Shown: positions 9,409-26,645 of the stretch, in pieces
Layout: each line of letters starts with the position of its first letter
Position numbering within the stretch: position 1 is the stretch's first letter
IMG/VR virus record: IMGVR_UViG_3300020202_000064
Location: 30,000-93,999 of that record
Strand: one strand, 5' to 3'
Source: a virus
Length of the DNA: 64,000 nucleotides
Translations under genes and position numbers: made by a program
The notes under the pieces: model-generated
The model's input: only the letters and a program-made list of their open reading frames with translations
Told to the model about the DNA's origin: nothing
Databases searched by the model: none

Positions 9409-9479
9409 ACTCTAATTTACACTAAAAATATTGCAAACGTAACATATTTTCTTGTAGAATAATTTTGTACTCTAAAGAT

Positions 9480-9989
9480 ATGAAAACTTCCATAAATCAA
9501 GAAAAAATTGAAATGATGAAATCGTTAAAATTAAGTGGTCTCAGCTATAGGTTAATTGCGGAGCAAATCAAGTGTTCTATCGGAACTGTAAAGTATCACT
9601 TGGACCCCAATTTTAAAGAGAGTGTGAAAAAGCGACACAAAATGAACACAAAAAAGTATTATCACATGTACAAAGGAAAATATTGCACATGCGGTTTATC
9701 GAAAAAGGTCGCCTTCTTTTTTAGAAAGACTGGTCGAAAATTTACAACAAAAGACCTACGTAACAAGCTTGGTGATAATCCAATGTGTTATTTAACAGGA
9801 ATTCCGATTAACCTCGATAAAACAGAAACTTATCAATTAGACCATATTATGCCGCGGTCTAGGGGTGGAGACAATTCATTAGAAAATTGTGGGCTGGTTA
9901 CAAAAGAAATTAATTTGGCAAAATCAGATAAAACACCAGAAGAATTTATAGCGTTATGTAGGAAAGTTGTAGAACGAGTCAATAAATAA
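9480..9989 (+). CDS. HNH homing endonuclease with N-terminal HTH
   Basis: GLSYRLIAEQIKCSIGTVKYHL HTH; CYLTG...LDHIMPRSRGGDNSLENCGLV; opposite strand to the tRNA array. Confidence 0.85.
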   Translation: MKTSINQEKIEMMKSLKLSGLSYRLIAEQIKCSIGTVKYHLDPNFKESVKKRHKMNTKKYYHMYKGKYCTCGLSKKVAFFFRKTGRKFTTKDLRNKLGDNPMCYLTGIPINLDKTETYQLDHIMPRSRGGDNSLENCGLVTKEINLAKSDKTPEEFIALCRKVVERVNK

Positions 9990-10446: not shown

Positions 10447-10560
10447 CTAAGCCCTTTTTTTTGGATGCTACCATTACATTAGAGCGGCTTCCAACTCCGC
10501 TTGCCGACTCGAACGGCTCTCCTTGTTTCGTAGACAATTTTTGTTTGCTGTATGGGCTAA
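10447..10560 (-). ncRNA. Y-RNA-like (CAGC-motif) RNA with permuted tRNA module
   Basis: TTAGCCC-ATA-CAGCAA...GCCG-TTCGAGT-CGGC (T arm), AGCGG-loop-CCGCT (closed acceptor), ATGT-AATGGTA-GCAT (D arm)...GGGCTTAG. Confidence 0.8.
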
Positions 10561-12224: not shown

Positions 12225-12259
12225 AATCTGAATTACACGTAAGAATCAATCATTTAGCA

Positions 12260-12342
12260 TGGTGGTCAAGGTGGGACTCGAACCCACAAGCCGAAGCATA
12301 TGCACCTCAAGCATACGTGTATGCCAATTTCACCACATGACC
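12260..12342 (-). tRNA. tRNA-Leu(GAG)
   Basis: TATGC-TTGAGGT-GCATA, V-arm GCTTCGGC. Confidence 0.92.
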
Positions 12343-12381
12343 ATAACGGATTTTAACGTAGAAAGCCGCAAACGCACAATA

Positions 12382-12660
12382 TCATGTCCAATCCCAAGCG
12401 TTATCTCTTGGTTCTCTGGGTAAATTAACTTCTTCCTCGTCTATATTTCCCGCGCGTAGGTTTTTTAGTTCCTGATTGCGCTCGGCGCGACGGGCGCGCT
12501 CTCTCATTTGTTTGTGCCATTTTGGCGATTTATCCCAACGCTTTTTATCGCGAGTAAATTTCCATTCTGGCGTATTGTCAACAAGCGGTTCTCCCCACAT
12601 CATTATAGTGGGGCGCTTGCCACGTAGTTTCCTATCGTCAAAACGGCGTGTTCTGCTCAT
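12382..12660 (-). CDS. basic hypothetical protein
   Basis: MSRTRRFDDRK...AWDWT; likely start 12660. Confidence 0.6.
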   Translation of the reverse strand: MSRTRRFDDRKLRGKRPTIMMWGEPLVDNTPEWKFTRDKKRWDKSPKWHKQMRERARRAERNQELKNLRAGNIDEEEVNLPREPRDNAWDWT

Positions 12661-12700
12661 AGGAAGAAGCCTTTCGGCTGAGGTTTGTATTGGTAGAAGA

Positions 12701-12780
12701 TGGGGTATACGACGGGGCTTAAACCCGCAGGGACCAAGCTTCACAGGCTTGTGCGTCTAATCAATTTCGCCACGTATACC
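12701..12780 (-). tRNA. tRNA-His(GTG)
   Basis: CAAGC-CTGTGAA-GCTTG; G-1:C73 extended acceptor. Confidence 0.88.
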
Positions 12781-12784
12781 ATAA

Positions 12785-12912
12785 CTAAGTTCATTTTTAT
12801 ATTGTCGCCTAAACCAGACTAGGCTACTTCCGCATATTGTAAATGGTGCGGAAGGTGGGATTTGAACGCCACGTATAACAATTTCCATGAAATTGGATGC
12901 TGTTAGAACTTA
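12785..12912 (-). ncRNA. Y-RNA-like (CAGC-motif) RNA with permuted tRNA module and internal ACCA
   Basis: TAAGTTC-TAA-CAGCAT...GTGGCGTTCAAATCCCAC (T arm), CTTCCGC-ACCA-TTTACAATAT-GCGGAAG (acceptor), TA-GCCT-AGTCTGGTTT-AGGC (D arm)...GAACTTAG. Confidence 0.85.
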
Positions 12913-12992
12913 AATTGGTTTTTGATTTTATTATAAATCGTCATTTTTCTTCGTGTAATCTTTTATGGCAGGACCATAAGGATTCGAAAAAG

Positions 12993-13718
12993 ATGATTAA
13001 ACTATTTACTGATAAAGAATTTAATTCGGCTAAATCGCGGGATTTACTACCTCTTAAATGCGAAAAATGTGGAAAAACTTTCCACAAGGCAAAACACAGA
13101 ATACAGGATGCCTTATCGACCAAGACGAAGCTTTTCTGGAAATTTTGTTCTAAACGATGCAGTGATGAACACTTCGAAACATCCATAGAAGTCGAATGTT
13201 GCCAGTGCAAACGGAAAACATTCAAAACCCCGTCAGAGATAAAAAAAGTAAGACGCCCATTTTGTTCACAATCTTGTGCAGCTTTATATAACAACACGCA
13301 TAAAACACACGGAACATCTCGTTCAAAACTAGAAAAATGGTTGGAATCTAAATTAATAACTGAATATCCCGAATTAGAATTTCATTTCTCAAGAAAAGAT
13401 GCTATCAACGGTGAACTAGATATTTATATTCCATCATTAAAATTGGCATTTGAGTTAAACGGGATTTTCCATTATGAACCAATTTATGGTAAGGAACAAT
13501 TAATCAAAATGCAGAACAACGATAAACGAAAGTTCCAAGCGTGTTTAGAAAATGGAATAGAACTATGTATTATAGATACAACGTCTCAAAAGTATTTTAA
13601 AGAAAATACCTCTTTAAAATTTCTTAATATCATCCGAGATATAATCGAAAGAAAAATGGCAGGACATGTAGGTGAGGAACCCACTTCTTCGCGTTTGGAG
13701 TGCGAGGCACATACCTAA
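12993..13718 (+). CDS. homing endonuclease: Zn-ribbon repeats plus Vsr/DUF559-like PD-(D/E)XK domain
   Basis: CEKCGK...FCSKRC, CCQC...FCSQSC; ELDIYIPSLKLAFELNGIFHY; C-terminus overlaps the antisense of tRNA-Trp. Confidence 0.8.
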   Translation: MIKLFTDKEFNSAKSRDLLPLKCEKCGKTFHKAKHRIQDALSTKTKLFWKFCSKRCSDEHFETSIEVECCQCKRKTFKTPSEIKKVRRPFCSQSCAALYNNTHKTHGTSRSKLEKWLESKLITEYPELEFHFSRKDAINGELDIYIPSLKLAFELNGIFHYEPIYGKEQLIKMQNNDKRKFQACLENGIELCIIDTTSQKYFKENTSLKFLNIIRDIIERKMAGHVGEEPTSSRLECEAHT

Positions 13719-16587: not shown

Positions 16588-16665
16588 TGGCGCGGGAGGT
16601 GGGCTTCGAACCCACAACCTTGAAATTTAGAGTTTCCTGCTCTGAACCAGTTGAGCTACTCCCGC
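16588..16665 (-). tRNA. amber suppressor tRNA (anticodon CTA)
   Basis: GCGGGAG-TA-GCTCAACTGGTTCAGAGC-A-GGAAA-CTCTAAA-TTTCA-AGGTT-GTGGG-TTCGAAG-CCCAC-CTCCCGC-GCCA; canonical cloverleaf. Confidence 0.9.
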
Positions 16666-18402: not shown

Positions 18403-18440
18403 TACGAATCTACGATTCTATTATAAATCGAAGATTTAAT

Positions 18441-19262: not shown

Positions 19263-19400
19263 TGGAACGTATGGGATTCGAACCCATATCGACGAACTTT
19301 ACGCCCGTCTCGTAAGATTATCTTATATATTCTTTTACCGGTGCGAATATATCACTTCATCAAACTACTTGTGGAGCTTTGACCATTAAGCTAACGTCCC
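19263..19400 (-). ncRNA. tRNA-like RNA with Ala identity elements and the anticodon arm replaced by an ~85 nt domain
   Basis: GGGACGT/ACGTTCC-A (G3:U70, A73); canonical D arm GCTT-AATGGTCA-AAGC; T arm ATGGG-TTCGAAT-CCCAT; no anticodon stem-loop. Confidence 0.65.
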
Positions 19401-20121: not shown

Positions 20122-20471
20122 TGGTGGAGATGGAGGGCTTCGATTCCCTCGTGTCCGATACTTCGTATTTCCATTCTTGTTACATGCTTAGAATCACTTG
20201 ATAATATCGTTTTCGGTTTGATTCTACCAAACGACATTTGACGGTTATATAATCAGCTTCTATCAACCAGTCAATTTTAAAGCTGATTCCCGATGATGAC
20301 GAGTGGCCCAATTTATCGGCGGTCAATTGGAACTCGGTTAGCCGCAATTAAGCAGCGTAAGCATAAACTTCTGTTTTCTTAGCGTTTATTTTGTGATACG
20401 TTTTACGACGTGGCATCATTGTCGGCATGGAATGTAAACCTACGTATTGGATAGAATCCAAATACATCCCC
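20122..20471 (-). ncRNA. ssrA: tmRNA
   Basis: GGGGATG...CATCTCC-ACCA (G3:U70); resume context ATAAAC-GCT; tag AKKTEVYAYAA*. Confidence 0.92.
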
Positions 20472-20815: not shown

Positions 20816-20873
20816 GTTGCTTTAATTGCGCGAAATCTTAAAACCTTCGGTTTTATTATAAATCGAAGATTTA

Positions 20874-21088: not shown

Positions 21089-21145
21089 CTAAGCGCATTT
21101 TGTTTTTCATTAATCATTGAATTTTTAATTCGCTGTTAGCGCTTA
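21089..21145 (-). ncRNA. Y-RNA-like (CAGC-motif) RNA, minimal
   Basis: TAAGCGC-TAA-CAGCGA...A-rich...GCGCTTAG. Confidence 0.75.
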
Positions 21146-21725: not shown

Positions 21726-22301
21726 ATGTCCACTAAAATATTATCTGAATTTTCTCGATGTGACTCCTTTGGAACGCAGCGTAAATACGTTTCTTACCAT
21801 TGTACTCGATGCGGTGTCGAACATTCCAAACCAAAACGTAACTTTTGGTTAGATAGACCCAACTTCTGTTCCGTTAACTGTGCAAGAGAACATCAAAAAA
21901 TTTTGCATTCATTTGAAGCTGAGTGCGCATGGTGCGCAAATAAATTCCACAAAAAGATATCAACAAAGGGAAATAGTCGTTCCGGTTTATATTTTTGTTC
22001 CAGACTATGCAAAGACAAGGCTCAAAGCTTGGAAGGTGGTATAAAGGAAATACAGCCAAATCATTACGGAGAAATTAAAAAGAATTATCGCGAAACTGCA
22101 TTTAAAAATCTGCCAGCACGCTGTAATCGATGCGACTTTGCTGCTTACCCAGAGATACTAGAGGTTCATCACAAAGACCATAATCACCATAATAATACCG
22201 TAGATAATTTGGAAATTTTATGTCCAAACTGCCACGAAATTCATCACTTCGAAACGAAATCGGGTAAATATGCCAAAAGTGGTGGACTGGAAGGGGATTG
22301 A
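21726..22301 (+). CDS. HNH homing endonuclease with Zn-ribbon repeats
   Basis: FCSVNC, FCSRLC repeats; CNRC...LEVHHKD...NLEILCPNCHEIHH; ends inside the antisense of tRNA-Ala. Confidence 0.88.
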   Translation: MSTKILSEFSRCDSFGTQRKYVSYHCTRCGVEHSKPKRNFWLDRPNFCSVNCAREHQKILHSFEAECAWCANKFHKKISTKGNSRSGLYFCSRLCKDKAQSLEGGIKEIQPNHYGEIKKNYRETAFKNLPARCNRCDFAAYPEILEVHHKDHNHHNNTVDNLEILCPNCHEIHHFETKSGKYAKSGGLEGD

Positions 22302-22945: not shown

Positions 22946-23039
22946 CTAAGTATATTTTTATCACCCCATAAATTTGAAATGGCGGGGTGTGAAGGAATTG
23001 AACCTTCTGTTTCCAGAAAAGTCATGCTGTTAATACTTA
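22946..23039 (-). ncRNA. Y-RNA-like (CAGC-motif) RNA with permuted T arm/acceptor and internal GCCA
   Basis: TAAGTAT-TAA-CAGCAT...GAAGG-TTCAATT-CCTTC-ACACCCC-GCCA-TTTCAAATTTAT-GGGGTG...ATACTTAG. Confidence 0.82.
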
Positions 23040-23167: not shown

Positions 23168-23290
23168 CTAAGTTCGTTTTTTTCGTTGTTCTGCTTTAAA
23201 CTAACTTGCTGAAATTGAAATTGGTGGCAAGTGAAGTGCGCTACGCTCCATCTCCGTCTTATGTGATGATTTAACCGCTGTTAGAACTTA
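23168..23290 (-). ncRNA. Y-RNA-like (CAGC-motif) RNA with permuted tRNA module and internal ACCA
   Basis: TAAGTTC-TAA-CAGCGG...ACTTGCC-ACCA-ATTTCAATTTC-AGCAAGT-TA-GTTT-AAAGCA-GAAC...GAACTTAG. Confidence 0.8.
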
Positions 23291-24074: not shown

Positions 24075-24911
24075 TTACAATTTTCTCAATTTAAACTCTT
24101 CAATCTTCTCATCAGGAACAAGGAGAATGTCCTGTCGCCATTCTGAATAGATGGTAAGCGGCTCAAGGCAATAGCCACAATACATACTGTAACCAATGTA
24201 ATCCTGCAATTGTTTGATTGCCATATGCGTGCGCGGGAACCACTCGGCATGAATCACGGGACGATGTTCCTTAATAATATCCCTGAAACTCCACAAGATG
24301 TGGAAGTCATGCCCCTCAGTATCGATTTTAATAAACGAGATATCGGCAAAGTTAACCTGTGGCCCAAGAAACTTTTCAAAACTGACAGCGCGAATCAAAC
24401 GGGGTACTGTGTAAGTTCCAACCCAAGAATTCGTAGAAGGATGCCCGCCATTATCATCGGTGGCCGAATATAGAAATTGGTGGATACCTTCATGTTCCAT
24501 AACGGCATAAGGACAACCAACAATATTCATACTTGGGTTAAGCCCCAAATTGATATTAAGTTGTGACGAAAAGCTCGGACTACATTCGAAAGCAAATACT
24601 TTACCACCATCCGTGAGGATAGAAATGGCCAAACTCGTGTCACCATCGTAGGCACCAATATCAACCGCCACTGAACCAGAACGAACGAATCGATGATTGA
24701 CGTTGATGAAATTATTTACGAACTCTGAGTATGGAGTTGGTAACGAGCCGCGTTTCTGTGGCGCTTTATGACAGAAGGCTATCTTATAATCTTTATCTTT
24801 ATAATTTACCTTAAATTTCTCAACATGAGTCAGGATATCATTACCTTTTAATTCCTCGATGTGAGGAAGACCATCAATATAATTCTTTTCGTTGACGTAA
24901 GGGGGAGACAT
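24075..24911 (-). CDS. FkbM-family methyltransferase
   Basis: VDIGAYDGD, VFAFE, FIKIDTEGHD. Confidence 0.88.
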   Translation of the reverse strand: MSPPYVNEKNYIDGLPHIEELKGNDILTHVEKFKVNYKDKDYKIAFCHKAPQKRGSLPTPYSEFVNNFINVNHRFVRSGSVAVDIGAYDGDTSLAISILTDGGKVFAFECSPSFSSQLNINLGLNPSMNIVGCPYAVMEHEGIHQFLYSATDDNGGHPSTNSWVGTYTVPRLIRAVSFEKFLGPQVNFADISFIKIDTEGHDFHILWSFRDIIKEHRPVIHAEWFPRTHMAIKQLQDYIGYSMYCGYCLEPLTIYSEWRQDILLVPDEKIEEFKLRKL

Positions 24912-25109: not shown

Positions 25110-26645
25110 TTAAGCCTTAATCGGTTCGTACCTTTCGGTATTCACCGTCTGCAAGAACATGTCCCATGGGGAAGTAATCTTGCCACTCATAATTGTCTTG
25201 AGGATGCTTGGGGAAGCACCCGAACACAACATGACACCCTTTTCGTCAAACTTCACCGGACTGTCTGAGTAGGCGTTAACCTGCCAGAATACAATATCAG
25301 GAAGTTTATATCCTGCTTGCGCATATTGCCGCTTAATTGCTTCGTGGTTTGTTCCACCATTAACACAATTAAACTGCATATCAGATATGATAACAATCTT
25401 TGATGGCATTTCAGACTGTGGCACGTTATTTTGGATAGCGTGGCGAAGAATTGCTTGGAACGAAGATTGTACATTCGTGGAGCCGCCCCAATCAGCCGAA
25501 TTAAGGTTAATCAATTTCTCCTTGAGATTTCCGCCAACAACCTTCTGCAAACGGGAGTCGTCTGAGAAAGTTAGGAAATAACCGTTGAATGCGCCGCGAT
25601 TACGCTCTGCCGTATAAAGGGCGAGTGAAACGCAGATATCGATTGGGCTTACACTTTCGCCATAACGAACACCCAAATTTCCCATGGAGCCGGAAACGTC
25701 CGCAACAACAAGGATATTGTCGTTCTTCCCTTCTGTGTAGTCGGGAAGTGCATTCCATTGCGCTTCGATTGTACGAAGGTCGTTACCGTCCTTCTGTGTA
25801 ATTCCGCGCATCAAATCATACGGATATAGCGTTGCAGAATTAATCTTCGCTTCGCCCTTCTCGACCTTGGTCAAGAACTTCTCATAGCGCTTTGGGTCGT
25901 GCTTGTTAAAGGCAGACTTGTAAATAAGCGCAGCACGAGATGGTACTTGCTCAAAGTTAATCTTGCTCCATTCACCACTGGTCATCAACCGTTCAACGAT
26001 ACCGATTTCCTCACGAAGACCGGACAACATCTTACGATATGCCTTTGGTGACATTTTCATTGCGGCGCGAACCTTTTCAGCCAAACGACGTGTCGTCGCG
26101 CTGGAAGCCTGCGCAGATGGTGCCCATTTTGCAGCCAATGTAATCGCTTCGCCCTTTGCCTTCTTATAAGCATCGGTCTTCAATTGGGACGCAACGAAAA
26201 CCAATGCATCCTTCTCCAATGGAGTGCCCTCCAAGGATTCAAGAACATTGTCGAAACGGGTATATTCAGGAACGTGCTGAATAAGCTTCTTTGCCACAGG
26301 CGCGTCATTCTTCGCGAGCCAGTTAAGACCCAAGCGAAAAAGACGACGTTCACCCTGTCCGCCGCGCACGTCACCCAAATAGAATAACGTCCTTAGTGCA
26401 AGGGTTTTATCTTCTGCATATGCGGCGCTGAAAAGCTTTGTAACTTCGGCATCGGCTTGATTGCGCAATGCGCCACCTCGCGAGAACAAGTCCAGCAAGG
26501 ATGTGCCAGTGGTTGAATGTGATACTGCGCCGTTTAAGGTTGTAGTATCTTTCGTTTGCATAGCGCTAATAAGCGCATTCTGCTTCTTAGGGGTTGCAGT
26601 GTTACGGGTAAACTGCCCCAATGAGTTTCTCTTTATATTCTTCAT
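25110..26645 (-). CDS. Ro60/TROVE-like helical + vWA protein (DUF2828-like)
   Basis: T.NGA.SHSTTG..LLDLF; DVRGGQGERRLF; AAKWAP; INFEQVPSRA; LYPYDL; MIDAS VADVSGSM; DWGGSTN; ISDMQF; IVFWQV. Confidence 0.88.
   Translation of the reverse strand: MKNIKRNSLGQFTRNTATPKKQNALISAMQTKDTTTLNGAVSHSTTGTSLLDLFSRGGALRNQADAEVTKLFSAAYAEDKTLALRTLFYLGDVRGGQGERRLFRLGLNWLAKNDAPVAKKLIQHVPEYTRFDNVLESLEGTPLEKDALVFVASQLKTDAYKKAKGEAITLAAKWAPSAQASSATTRRLAEKVRAAMKMSPKAYRKMLSGLREEIGIVERLMTSGEWSKINFEQVPSRAALIYKSAFNKHDPKRYEKFLTKVEKGEAKINSATLYPYDLMRGITQKDGNDLRTIEAQWNALPDYTEGKNDNILVVADVSGSMGNLGVRYGESVSPIDICVSLALYTAERNRGAFNGYFLTFSDDSRLQKVVGGNLKEKLINLNSADWGGSTNVQSSFQAILRHAIQNNVPQSEMPSKIVIISDMQFNCVNGGTNHEAIKRQYAQAGYKLPDIVFWQVNAYSDSPVKFDEKGVMLCSGASPSILKTIMSGKITSPWDMFLQTVNTERYEPIKA

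What the first reader, a model, noticed from the sequence alone, without database searches (positions are those of the whole stretch)
12785..12912. Circularly permuted tRNA inside a CAGC-motif RNA, with internal ACCA and a cleavable-looking linker
The order is T arm, 3' acceptor strand (CTTCCGC), ACCA, 10-nt AU linker, 5' acceptor strand (GCGGAAG), D arm. The CAGC stem takes the place of the anticodon arm. This topology matches YrlA, but the perfect 7-bp acceptor plus NCCA suggests RNase P and 3' trimming could yield a two-piece, chargeable, anticodon-less tRNA mimic.
Basis: partly seen in the sequence, partly recalled or inferred. Interest (0 to 1): 0.8.

Follow-up and report, generated by a model that had tools for sequence, protein, structure and literature searches.

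The report
Phage Y-RNA-like permuted tRNA mimic
This 129-base phage RNA is a complete tRNA body turned inside out on a conserved docking handle, most likely the partner of a Ro60-like ring protein encoded nearby, and its built-in CCA and spacer suggest that tRNA-processing enzymes cut it into two pieces, as already shown for one bacterial Y RNA.

Summary
On the minus strand, 12913-12785 holds, in order: handle 5' strand, ACAGCA, anticodon-stem 3' strand, T arm, 3' acceptor, ACCA, a 10-nt linker, 5' acceptor, D arm, anticodon-stem 5' strand, an A-rich strand and handle 3' strand. Rejoined in normal order, ARAGORN calls it a tRNA (0/200 shuffles do).

It is one of 11 handle RNAs in a 31-tRNA phage array. 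The nearby 511-aa DUF2828/DUF7788 protein has the Ro60 fold (Foldseek E 8.6e-9). It is not a YrlA member: there is no GNCGAA motif and no Rfam hit.

In relatives the same RNA occurs in both circular permutations: handle open (type A, as here) or acceptor open (type B). Type B copies carry NCCA only where that phage's real tRNAs encode CCA (3/4 against 0/11). The linker here scores like a genuine tRNA trailer plus leader.

M. smegmatis YrlA, which has a 7-bp acceptor stem, is cut by RNase P and gets CCA (PMC4201824). Two-piece maturation is therefore plausible here (about 55%). Charging has no support.

This scan has met the family before on other DNA.

The parts
12930..12959 (-). Promoter-like site ATTACA-18-TATAAT. 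It contains the motif CGATTTATAATA, which recurs upstream of two other handle units.
   Evidence: 10 of 12 matches; three exact copies, all on the minus strand, at 12929-12940, 18419-18430 and 20854-20865.
12906..12913 (-). Handle closing stem, 5' strand UUAAGUUC.
   Evidence: It pairs with 12792-12785. The inner 3 bp differ between the window's units in a compensatory way. In the family alignment, 6 of the 7 handle pairs change on both sides.
12898..12903 (-). Conserved handle motif ACAGCA (family consensus ACAGCAA).
   Evidence: The core CAGC is invariant in A2. ACAGCAA is conserved in all 18 type B units.
12883..12897 (-). Variable 5' spacer UCCAAUUUCAUGGAA. It can form a small hairpin.
12878..12882 (-). 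Anticodon-stem 3' strand AUUGU.
   Evidence: Perfect 5 bp with 12805-12801. It is the canonical distance (5-nt variable loop) from the T arm.
12855..12877 (-). Variable loop UAUAC plus the T arm, with T loop UUCAAAU and one bulged C in the stem.
12848..12854 (-). 3' acceptor strand CUUCCGC.
   Evidence: Pairs 7/7 with 12833-12827.
12844..12847 (-). Discriminator A73 plus encoded CCA.
   Evidence: All 31 real tRNAs of the array also encode CCA.
12834..12843 (-). 10-nt linker UUUACAAUAU. It starts like a tRNA trailer and ends like an RNase P leader. The proposed RNase P cut lies between 12834 and 12833.
   Evidence: trailer score at the 98th percentile and leader score at the 97th percentile of all 5-mers in the array region.
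12827..12833 (-). 5' acceptor strand GCGGAAG.
12806..12826 (-). U8-A9, the D arm (GCCU / AGUCUGGUUU / AGGC, with G18G19) and G26.
12801..12805 (-). Anticodon-stem 5' strand ACAAU.
12793..12800 (-). A-rich 3' strand of the handle's internal loop, AUAAAAAU.
   Evidence: An A-rich stretch occupies this position in both type A and type B relatives.
12785..12792 (-). Handle closing stem, 3' strand GAACUUAG.
12701..12780 (-). tRNA-His(GUG) with encoded G-1, 4 nt downstream of the unit. RNase P processing of this tRNA would set the unit's 3' end.
25110..26645 (-). 511-aa DUF2828 + DUF7788/vWA protein with a Ro60 ring fold, the presumed protein partner of the handle RNAs.
   Evidence: Pfam. (pLDDT 87.5, pTM 0.87); the top 13 PDB matches are all Ro60/Rsr/TROVE, best 1yvr at E 8.6e-9 and TM 0.59.

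Best explanation
The unit is a small non-coding RNA of about 129 nt. It belongs to an uncatalogued phage family of Y-RNA-like partner RNAs for a divergent Ro60-like protein (DUF2828/DUF7788).

The RNA has two modules. The first is a conserved handle: a closing stem, ACAGCA(A) and an A-rich strand. I infer this is the protein docking site. The second is a complete tRNA body (acceptor, D, T and anticodon stems) without an anticodon loop.

In this copy the chain is open at the handle, and the acceptor is bridged by ACCA plus a 10-nt spacer.

Likely maturation, all inferred:
- Transcription starts from the promoter-like site about 10 nt upstream.
- The 3' end is set when RNase P cuts at G-1 of the tRNA-His 4 nt downstream.
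- More likely than not (about 55%), RNase P also cuts the linker at U|G1, and 3' exonucleases trim back to the encoded CCA.
- This would give a two-piece RNA of about 70 nt and 49 nt. The pieces would be held together by the acceptor, anticodon and handle helices.

The RNA then works like a Y RNA. It would tether or gate the Ro60-like ring and present a tRNA-shaped surface to tRNA-binding proteins. I do not expect it to be aminoacylated.
For: Family and handle:
- The window holds 11 units with compensatory inner stem pairs and ACAGC.
- Covariance model R1 finds 93 matches in 87 sources, all on the strand of the Ro60-like gene.
- Covariation in A2 beats every shuffle: 86.9% of cells paired against 61.2%, 0/500.

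Protein: Ro60 fold.

tRNA body: permute-back test and tertiary nucleotides.

Processing:
- All 31 array tRNAs encode CCA, and several units start directly after a tRNA's CCA or end 3-6 nt before a tRNA.
- The linker scores as a trailer plus a leader.
- Two other units in this window also carry NCCA followed by a similar 11-12 nt AU-rich linker, although their stems are unrelated.
- Relatives hold the opposite permutation, with an open acceptor end. Their leaders end in AU|G, 19 of 20 consensus pairs covary, and no acceptor pair is broken.
- Their NCCA status follows the CCA regime of their own phage's tRNAs, 3/4 against 0/11.

Precedent: M. smegmatis YrlA (PMC4201824; 10.1101/312249).

Stability: the two-piece complex has a ddG of about -18 kcal/mol.
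Against: - There are no expression or end-mapping data.
- No ortholog of this exact unit was found, so conservation of its ACCA and linker is untested.
- Other type A members close the acceptor with short CCA-less loops (UCCG, ACUCAC, CUGUUA; window 10448 and L087:11809). An open acceptor is therefore not required by the family.
- One near-identical ortholog pair differs exactly in the CCA: ACCAUAU against AUCAUAU.
- The T stem has a bulged C.
- The MFE prefers an alternative pairing of the anticodon-stem strand.
- Binding of the handle by the DUF2828 protein is inferred from co-occurrence only.
- The gene lies 12 kb from this unit.
Confidence: 0.6

Rival explanations
1. It is the same Ro60-like partner RNA, but it stays in one piece as a closed YrlA-style mimic. 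The ACCA and linker are an evolutionary relic of a junction between two tandem type B copies, or between tandem tRNA genes, that became intramolecular. The linker is not cut.
For: - Tandem type B arrays (L074, L047) contain exactly this junction between neighbours, so a permutation by duplication and deletion would yield it.
- Many type A relatives have short or CCA-less loops, and one ortholog lost the CCA.
- Most YrlA RNAs are not RNase P substrates (PMC4201824; 10.1101/312249).
Against: - Three units with unrelated stems in this one genome all keep NCCA plus a similar spacer.
- The spacer still scores like functional trailers and leaders.
- The acceptor is a perfect 7-bp helix, the determinant named for RNase P cleavage of M. 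smegmatis YrlA.
Confidence: 0.33
2. It is a two-piece tRNA mimic that is also aminoacylated and engages EF-Tu or the ribosome, in a tmRNA-like use of the acceptor end.
For: - It has a perfect acceptor stem, A73 and an encoded CCA.
- The family's type B members mature like tRNAs.
- Chen et al. raise the possibility for M. smegmatis YrlA.
Against: - No anticodon-independent identity set is present, read from the sequence. There is no G3:U70 (Ala), no long variable arm (Ser) and no G-1 after the cut (His).
- There is no tag ORF, and the Rfam permuted tmRNA model scores only 11 bits against a cut-off of 47.
- CCA is dispensable in several family members.
Confidence: 0.07
3. It is a circularly permuted tRNA gene of the Cyanidioschyzon kind. 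The handle is excised, the ends are ligated to make an anticodon loop, and the acceptor is opened to give a working tRNA.
For: The topology is the same as permuted pre-tRNAs. The array lacks Ala, Asp and Cys tRNAs.
Against: - The handle is conserved in units that carry no tRNA body at all, e.g. the 56-nt unit 21090-21145.
- No consistent 7-nt anticodon loop can be formed across copies.
- No RtcB ligase is found in the held 94 kb.
- Bacteria are not known to have a splicing endonuclease (10.1101/312249).
Confidence: 0.03
4. It is a decayed or rearranged tRNA pseudogene, or a false positive from a tRNA dimer, with no function.
For: Dimeric tRNAs are known false positives in YrlA searches. I saw such hits in L087.
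Against: - Neither half belongs to a whole tRNA.
- All helices are perfect and the tertiary nucleotides are intact.
- The handle is shared and covaries across distant phages.
Confidence: 0.02

Closest known systems
Mycobacterium smegmatis YrlA (Y RNA-like A; Chen et al. 2014, PMC4201824)
   Same: - It is a circularly permuted tRNA-like domain (T arm, 7-bp acceptor-like stem, D arm) on a protein-binding stem.
- It is encoded near a Ro60-type gene.
- RNase P cleaves it in the acceptor loop.
- The tRNA-3'-like end carries CCA.
- Both halves remain in the RNP.
   Different: - The docking module here is a closing stem plus ACAGCA(A) and an A-rich strand, not the GNCGAAN0-1G motif.
- The protein is DUF2828/DUF7788. 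It has the Ro60 fold but no Pfam TROVE match.
- CCA is encoded here, not added.
- The unit sits in a 31-tRNA phage array and is flanked by tRNA processing sites.
- Cleavage here is only inferred.
Salmonella Typhimurium YrlA (crystal structure of the tRNA-like domain; 10.1101/312249)
   Same: L-shaped tRNA mimic with a closed acceptor, no anticodon loop, and an anticodon stem that continues into the protein-binding stem.
   Different: The Salmonella RNA has a 6-bp acceptor stem, no CCA, and is not cut by RNase P. This unit has a 7-bp stem, ACCA and a 10-nt spacer.
Two-piece (circularly permuted) tmRNA
   Same: The gene order is T arm, 3' acceptor, CCA, intervening segment, 5' acceptor. The intervening segment is removed to give two base-paired pieces with a free CCA end. 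One-piece and two-piece forms coexist in different lineages, like types B and A here.
   Different: There is no mRNA-like tag frame and there are no pseudoknots. Rfam tmRNA_permuted scores only 11 bits. The phage has an ordinary one-piece tmRNA at 20122-20471.
Thermus phage phiLo Ro60 with Yrl1/Yrl2 (PMC12135203)
   Same: A phage-encoded Ro60-fold protein with phage-encoded partner RNAs next to the gene. It is among the structural matches of the protein here (9l5y).
   Different: The phiLo protein is a recognisable TROVE protein, and its RNAs were picked by the CGAA motif. No tRNA-array context or permuted tRNA with CCA is described there.

Membership tests
YrlA (bacterial/phage Y RNA-like A) | Ro60-binding module with the conserved GNCGAAN0-1G motif in the 5' strand of the stem | tested here: not met
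   No GNCGAAG match inside 12785-12913. The unit contains no CGAA at all (sequence).
YrlA (bacterial/phage Y RNA-like A) | Match to the curated Rfam covariance model | tested here: not met
   No YrlA or Y RNA hit at the gathering threshold over the window, nor at E up to 10 on 12600-13100.
YrlA (bacterial/phage Y RNA-like A) | tRNA-like domain in permuted order: T arm, acceptor-like stem-loop, D arm, with the anticodon stem closing onto the termini | tested here: met
YrlA (bacterial/phage Y RNA-like A) | Encoded beside a Ro60/Rsr (TROVE) gene | tested here: inconclusive
   There is no Pfam TROVE match in the 94-kb record. A Ro60-fold DUF2828 protein lies 12 kb upstream on the same strand.
ACAGCAA-handle RNAs next to DUF2828 Ro60-like genes (uncatalogued; seen earlier in this scan) | A 7-8 bp stem with covarying inner pairs, ACAGC(A/G)A 1-3 nt after its 5' strand, and an A-rich strand before its 3' strand | tested here: met
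ACAGCAA-handle RNAs next to DUF2828 Ro60-like genes (uncatalogued; seen earlier in this scan) | Co-occurrence with a DUF2828/DUF7788 gene, on the same strand | tested here: met
   All 93 R1 matches in 87 sources lie on the gene's strand, and many lie within 2 kb of it.
ACAGCAA-handle RNAs next to DUF2828 Ro60-like genes (uncatalogued; seen earlier in this scan) | Physical binding of the handle by the protein | not testable with these tools
   Needs co-immunoprecipitation or EMSA.
Canonical tRNA gene | Contiguous cloverleaf with a 7-nt anticodon loop | tested here: not met
   Neither ARAGORN nor Rfam calls a tRNA at 12785-12913. A tRNA is called only after artificial re-permutation with an added loop.
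Permuted tRNA gene (Cyanidioschyzon/Thermofilum type) | Termini form a bulge-helix-bulge motif whose excision and ligation recreates an anticodon loop | tested here: not met
   No consistent anticodon loop can be formed. The handle is also conserved in units without a tRNA body.
Two-piece tmRNA | tRNA-like domain plus a tag-peptide reading frame and pseudoknots | tested here: not met
   Rfam tmRNA_permuted scores 11 bits against a cut-off of 47, and covers only the T arm, acceptor and CCA.

The most novel reading that the evidence does not exclude
The handle RNAs are a tRNA-shaped RNA class that phages build in either circular permutation. The cell's tRNA machinery (RNase P, 3' trimming, the CCA enzyme) matures them to a genuine tRNA-like acceptor end. 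The two-piece form made from this unit carries a live CCA end. That end is either charged, or is used to dock the Ro60-like ring onto tRNA-handling machinery such as an aaRS, EF-Tu, the ribosome or tRNA repair. This would be a new link between RNA surveillance and translation during infection.
Probability: 0.12. Interest if true: 0.9.

Novelty: new variant of a known kind. Interest (0 to 1): 0.62.

Why it matters
Ro60/Y-RNA particles are ancient but poorly understood, and the purpose of the tRNA-like module is still an open question.

This unit belongs to a large phage branch that is absent from Rfam and from the papers I could search. That branch has a different docking handle and a Ro60 fold hidden under DUF2828. 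In it the tRNA module is a near-perfect tRNA.

The same RNA is built in both circular permutations, and the open-acceptor form copies the CCA habit of its phage's real tRNAs. This argues that the acceptor end is matured like a tRNA's, not merely tolerated.

The copy studied here, with its encoded CCA and an authentic-looking spacer, is a convenient test case. A single RNase P assay and a northern blot would show whether the two-piece maturation seen once in M. smegmatis is a general design of viral Y-like RNAs.

Tried and rejected
- blastn of 12600-13100 against the phage collection found no match.
- An exact-junction pattern search in viral contigs found no match.
- Pfam TROVE and RtcB searches of the 94-kb record found nothing.
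- phmmer of the protein against PDB sequences gave only noise. The Ro60 relation appears only at the fold level.
- My first handle regex and first permuted-tRNA descriptor were too loose. The descriptor gave 163 hits against 24 on reversed sequence, and many hits were junctions between real tandem tRNAs. I tightened both by masking ARAGORN tRNAs and requiring the handle.
- The body is not a recent copy of any tRNA in the array. The suppressor tRNA(CUA) is only loosely similar.
- The metagenome scan gave relatives at 60-61% protein identity at best. L087 has a closed CCA-less unit and no ortholog of this one, and its other model hits are tmRNA/tRNA dimers.
The contigs of the closest proteins, P0002 at 77% and P0003 at 73%, could therefore not be read.
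- Reading the A-rich strand as a latent anticodon loop (A-U-AAA-A-A) was rejected, because the pattern does not hold in relatives.

Full report
**Context.** The window is part of a 94-kb IMG/VR phage record estimated to be 46% complete. Between about 7 and 23.4 kb, the minus strand carries 31 ARAGORN tRNAs and a one-piece tmRNA. All 31 tRNAs encode their CCA.

**The observation.** Read on the minus strand, the region 12913-12785 contains, in order:
- handle 5' strand UUAAGUUC
- UA, then ACAGCA
- a 15-nt spacer
- AUUGU
- variable loop UAUAC
- a T arm with loop UUCAAAU and one bulged C
- CUUCCGC
- ACCA
- UUUACAAUAU
- GCGGAAG
- UA
- a D arm with G18G19
- G26
- ACAAU
- AUAAAAAU
- handle 3' strand GAACUUAG

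The fold is far more stable than shuffles (z = -3.8, 0/200). When the two halves are rejoined in normal order with any of seven test loops, ARAGORN calls a tRNA, against 0/200 shuffled controls. The tertiary-interaction nucleotides of a class I tRNA are all present.

One caveat applies. The nearest-neighbour MFE prefers to pair AUUGUU with the handle's UAACAG. That pairing is not conserved in relatives.

**The family.** Eleven intergenic units in the array share a closing stem, UAAG-NNN with NNN-CUUAG. Its inner three pairs differ between copies in a compensatory way, and the stem is followed by ACAGC(A/G). Several units begin directly after a tRNA's CCA, or end 3-6 nt before the next tRNA. 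This unit ends 4 nt before G-1 of tRNA-His. A promoter-like site (ATTACA-18-TATAAT, 10/12) ends 17 nt upstream of the handle. Its core, CGATTTATAATA, recurs exactly upstream of two other units.

**The protein.** The 511-aa ORF 25110-26645 (minus strand) matches DUF2828 and DUF7788/vWA. The 94-kb record has no Pfam TROVE match. An AlphaFold model built from 40 homologs is confident (pLDDT 87.5, pTM 0.87). Its 13 best PDB matches are all Ro60, Rsr or TROVE, aligned over the full length (1yvr, E 8.6e-9, TM 0.59). They include the Thermus phage phiLo Ro60. The array therefore sits downstream of a cryptic Ro60-like gene.

**Relatives.** An alignment-driven search returned 80 viral loci out of at least 554 relatives. 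A covariance model built from 12 permuted units found 93 matches in 87 sources, all on the strand of the Ro60-like gene. On the seed alignment:
- 86.9% of cells pair, against 61.2% in shuffles
- no shuffle of 500 reaches the observed covariation score
- sliding the partner columns collapses the signal
- all seven acceptor pairs change on both sides

**Two circular permutations.** In L074 and L047 the 5' acceptor strand of one "unit" pairs 7/7 with the 3' acceptor strand of the next unit. In L074 the handle's variable pair (G-C, A-U, G-C) also links neighbouring strands into a short capped hairpin. These are normal-order tRNA-like RNAs in which an A-rich strand, a capped handle hairpin and UAACAGCAA stand in place of the anticodon loop.

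A systematic classification found 32 modules of this type B, 13 of type A (handle open, acceptor capped, as in this unit) and 3 that were ambiguous. In 18 type B units:
- 19 of 20 consensus pairs show compensatory changes
- no acceptor pair is broken in any sequence
- ACAGCAA is invariant
- the 5' leaders end in AU|G, like RNase P substrates

Type B modules carry NCCA in 3 of 4 cases in phages whose real tRNAs encode CCA. The fourth has ACA. They carry it in 0 of 11 cases in phages whose tRNAs lack CCA. The numbers are small and the sequences are related, so this is indicative only. It is what maturation by the tRNA pathway would predict.

**What this means for the ACCA and linker.** In type B arrays, the segment T arm, 3' acceptor, NCCA, spacer, 5' acceptor is a junction between two molecules and must be cut. 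In this unit the same junction is intramolecular. Its spacer scores like the real trailers and leaders of this array (98th and 97th percentile of all 5-mers), above the mean of the real tRNAs' own leave-one-out scores.

Two further units in the window (22947-23039 and 23169-23290) also carry NCCA followed by similar 11-12 nt AU-rich spacers, although their stems are unrelated. For 23169, my own parse gives an A1-C72 mismatch followed by ACCA.

Published work supplies the mechanism. M. smegmatis YrlA has a 7-bp acceptor stem and is cut by M1 RNA in vitro. In vivo it exists as two Rsr-bound halves, and the tRNA-3'-like half acquires CCA. YrlAs with shorter stems are not cut (PMC4201824; 10.1101/312249). 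A two-piece complex of this unit would be stable (ddG about -18 kcal/mol).

**Evidence against obligatory cleavage.** Other type A members close the acceptor with short CCA-less loops. Examples are UCCG, ACUCAC, CUGUUA, window 10448-10560 and L087:11809-11918. The near-identical orthologs L059/L066 and L056 differ by ACCAUAU against AUCAUAU. The family therefore does not need an open acceptor, and the junction could be a relic of a type B tandem. I put cleavage at about 55%.

**Charging.** Nothing supports it. There is no G3:U70, no long variable arm, no G-1 after the cut and no anticodon.

**Membership.** The unit works like YrlA but is not a member of that family. The GNCGAAN0-1G Ro-binding motif is absent, and no Rfam family matches even at E up to 10. 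It is not a permuted tRNA gene either. The handle occurs in units with no tRNA body, no consistent anticodon loop can be made, and no RtcB is encoded in the held record. It is not a two-piece tmRNA.

**Literature.** I found no description of DUF2828 as Ro60-like, and none of an ACAGCAA-handle RNA. Phage TROVE proteins with tRNA-like partners are mentioned in general terms for jumbo phages (PMC7824862), and phiLo Ro60 with CGAA-motif RNAs is characterised (PMC12135203). Earlier notes of this scan describe the same handle family on other genomes. I re-derived the points I use.

**Limits.** All processing steps and the protein-RNA contact are inferred.

Noticed in passing
L074:9310-9640 and L047:6320-7200: Tandem arrays of type B handle RNAs: tRNA-like bodies with a capped handle hairpin in place of the anticodon loop. 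They are linked head to tail by 6-11 nt spacers, so that each T arm / NCCA / spacer / D arm junction mimics a permuted tRNA.
   Followed up: yes
window 12929-12940, 18419-18430, 20854-20865 (minus strand): Three exact copies of CGATTTATAATA, which contains a perfect -10 box, each a short distance upstream of a handle unit. They are probably internal promoters of the array.
   Followed up: partly
window 19263-19400 (minus strand): Rfam calls a tRNA that spans 138 nt (42.8 bits), and ARAGORN does not report it. It may be a tRNA with a large insertion, or another handle-type arrangement.
   Followed up: no
window 22947-23039 and 23169-23290 (minus strand): Two more type A units with NCCA and an 11-12 nt AU-rich linker. 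The first is a minihelix (T arm plus acceptor) without a D arm. The second has an aberrant T region and an A1-C72 mismatch.
   Followed up: partly
A permissive Rfam scan (E up to 1) finds only the neighbouring tRNA-Val.
   Followed up: partly
window 12994-13718 (plus strand): An ORF with FCS-type zinc-finger matches lies antisense between the unit and tRNA-Trp and overlaps the 3' end of tRNA-Trp. A similar ORF is at 21726-22301, and an HNH endonuclease is at 9465-9989. They look like mobile insertions in the array.
   Followed up: no
window 12382-12660 (minus strand): A small, very basic ORF (about 93 aa from the ATG at 12660) lies between tRNA-His and tRNA-Leu(GAG). The listed 120-aa ORF overlaps tRNA-His. 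It was not searched.
   Followed up: no
window 24075-24911 (minus strand): An FkbM-type methyltransferase gene lies immediately downstream of the Ro60-like gene. It could be a modification enzyme for the RNAs.
   Followed up: no
window 16588-16665 and 20122-20471 (minus strand): The array includes an amber suppressor tRNA(CUA) and a one-piece tmRNA. The relative L087 also has a tmRNA (12256-12656) inside its tRNA array.
   Followed up: no
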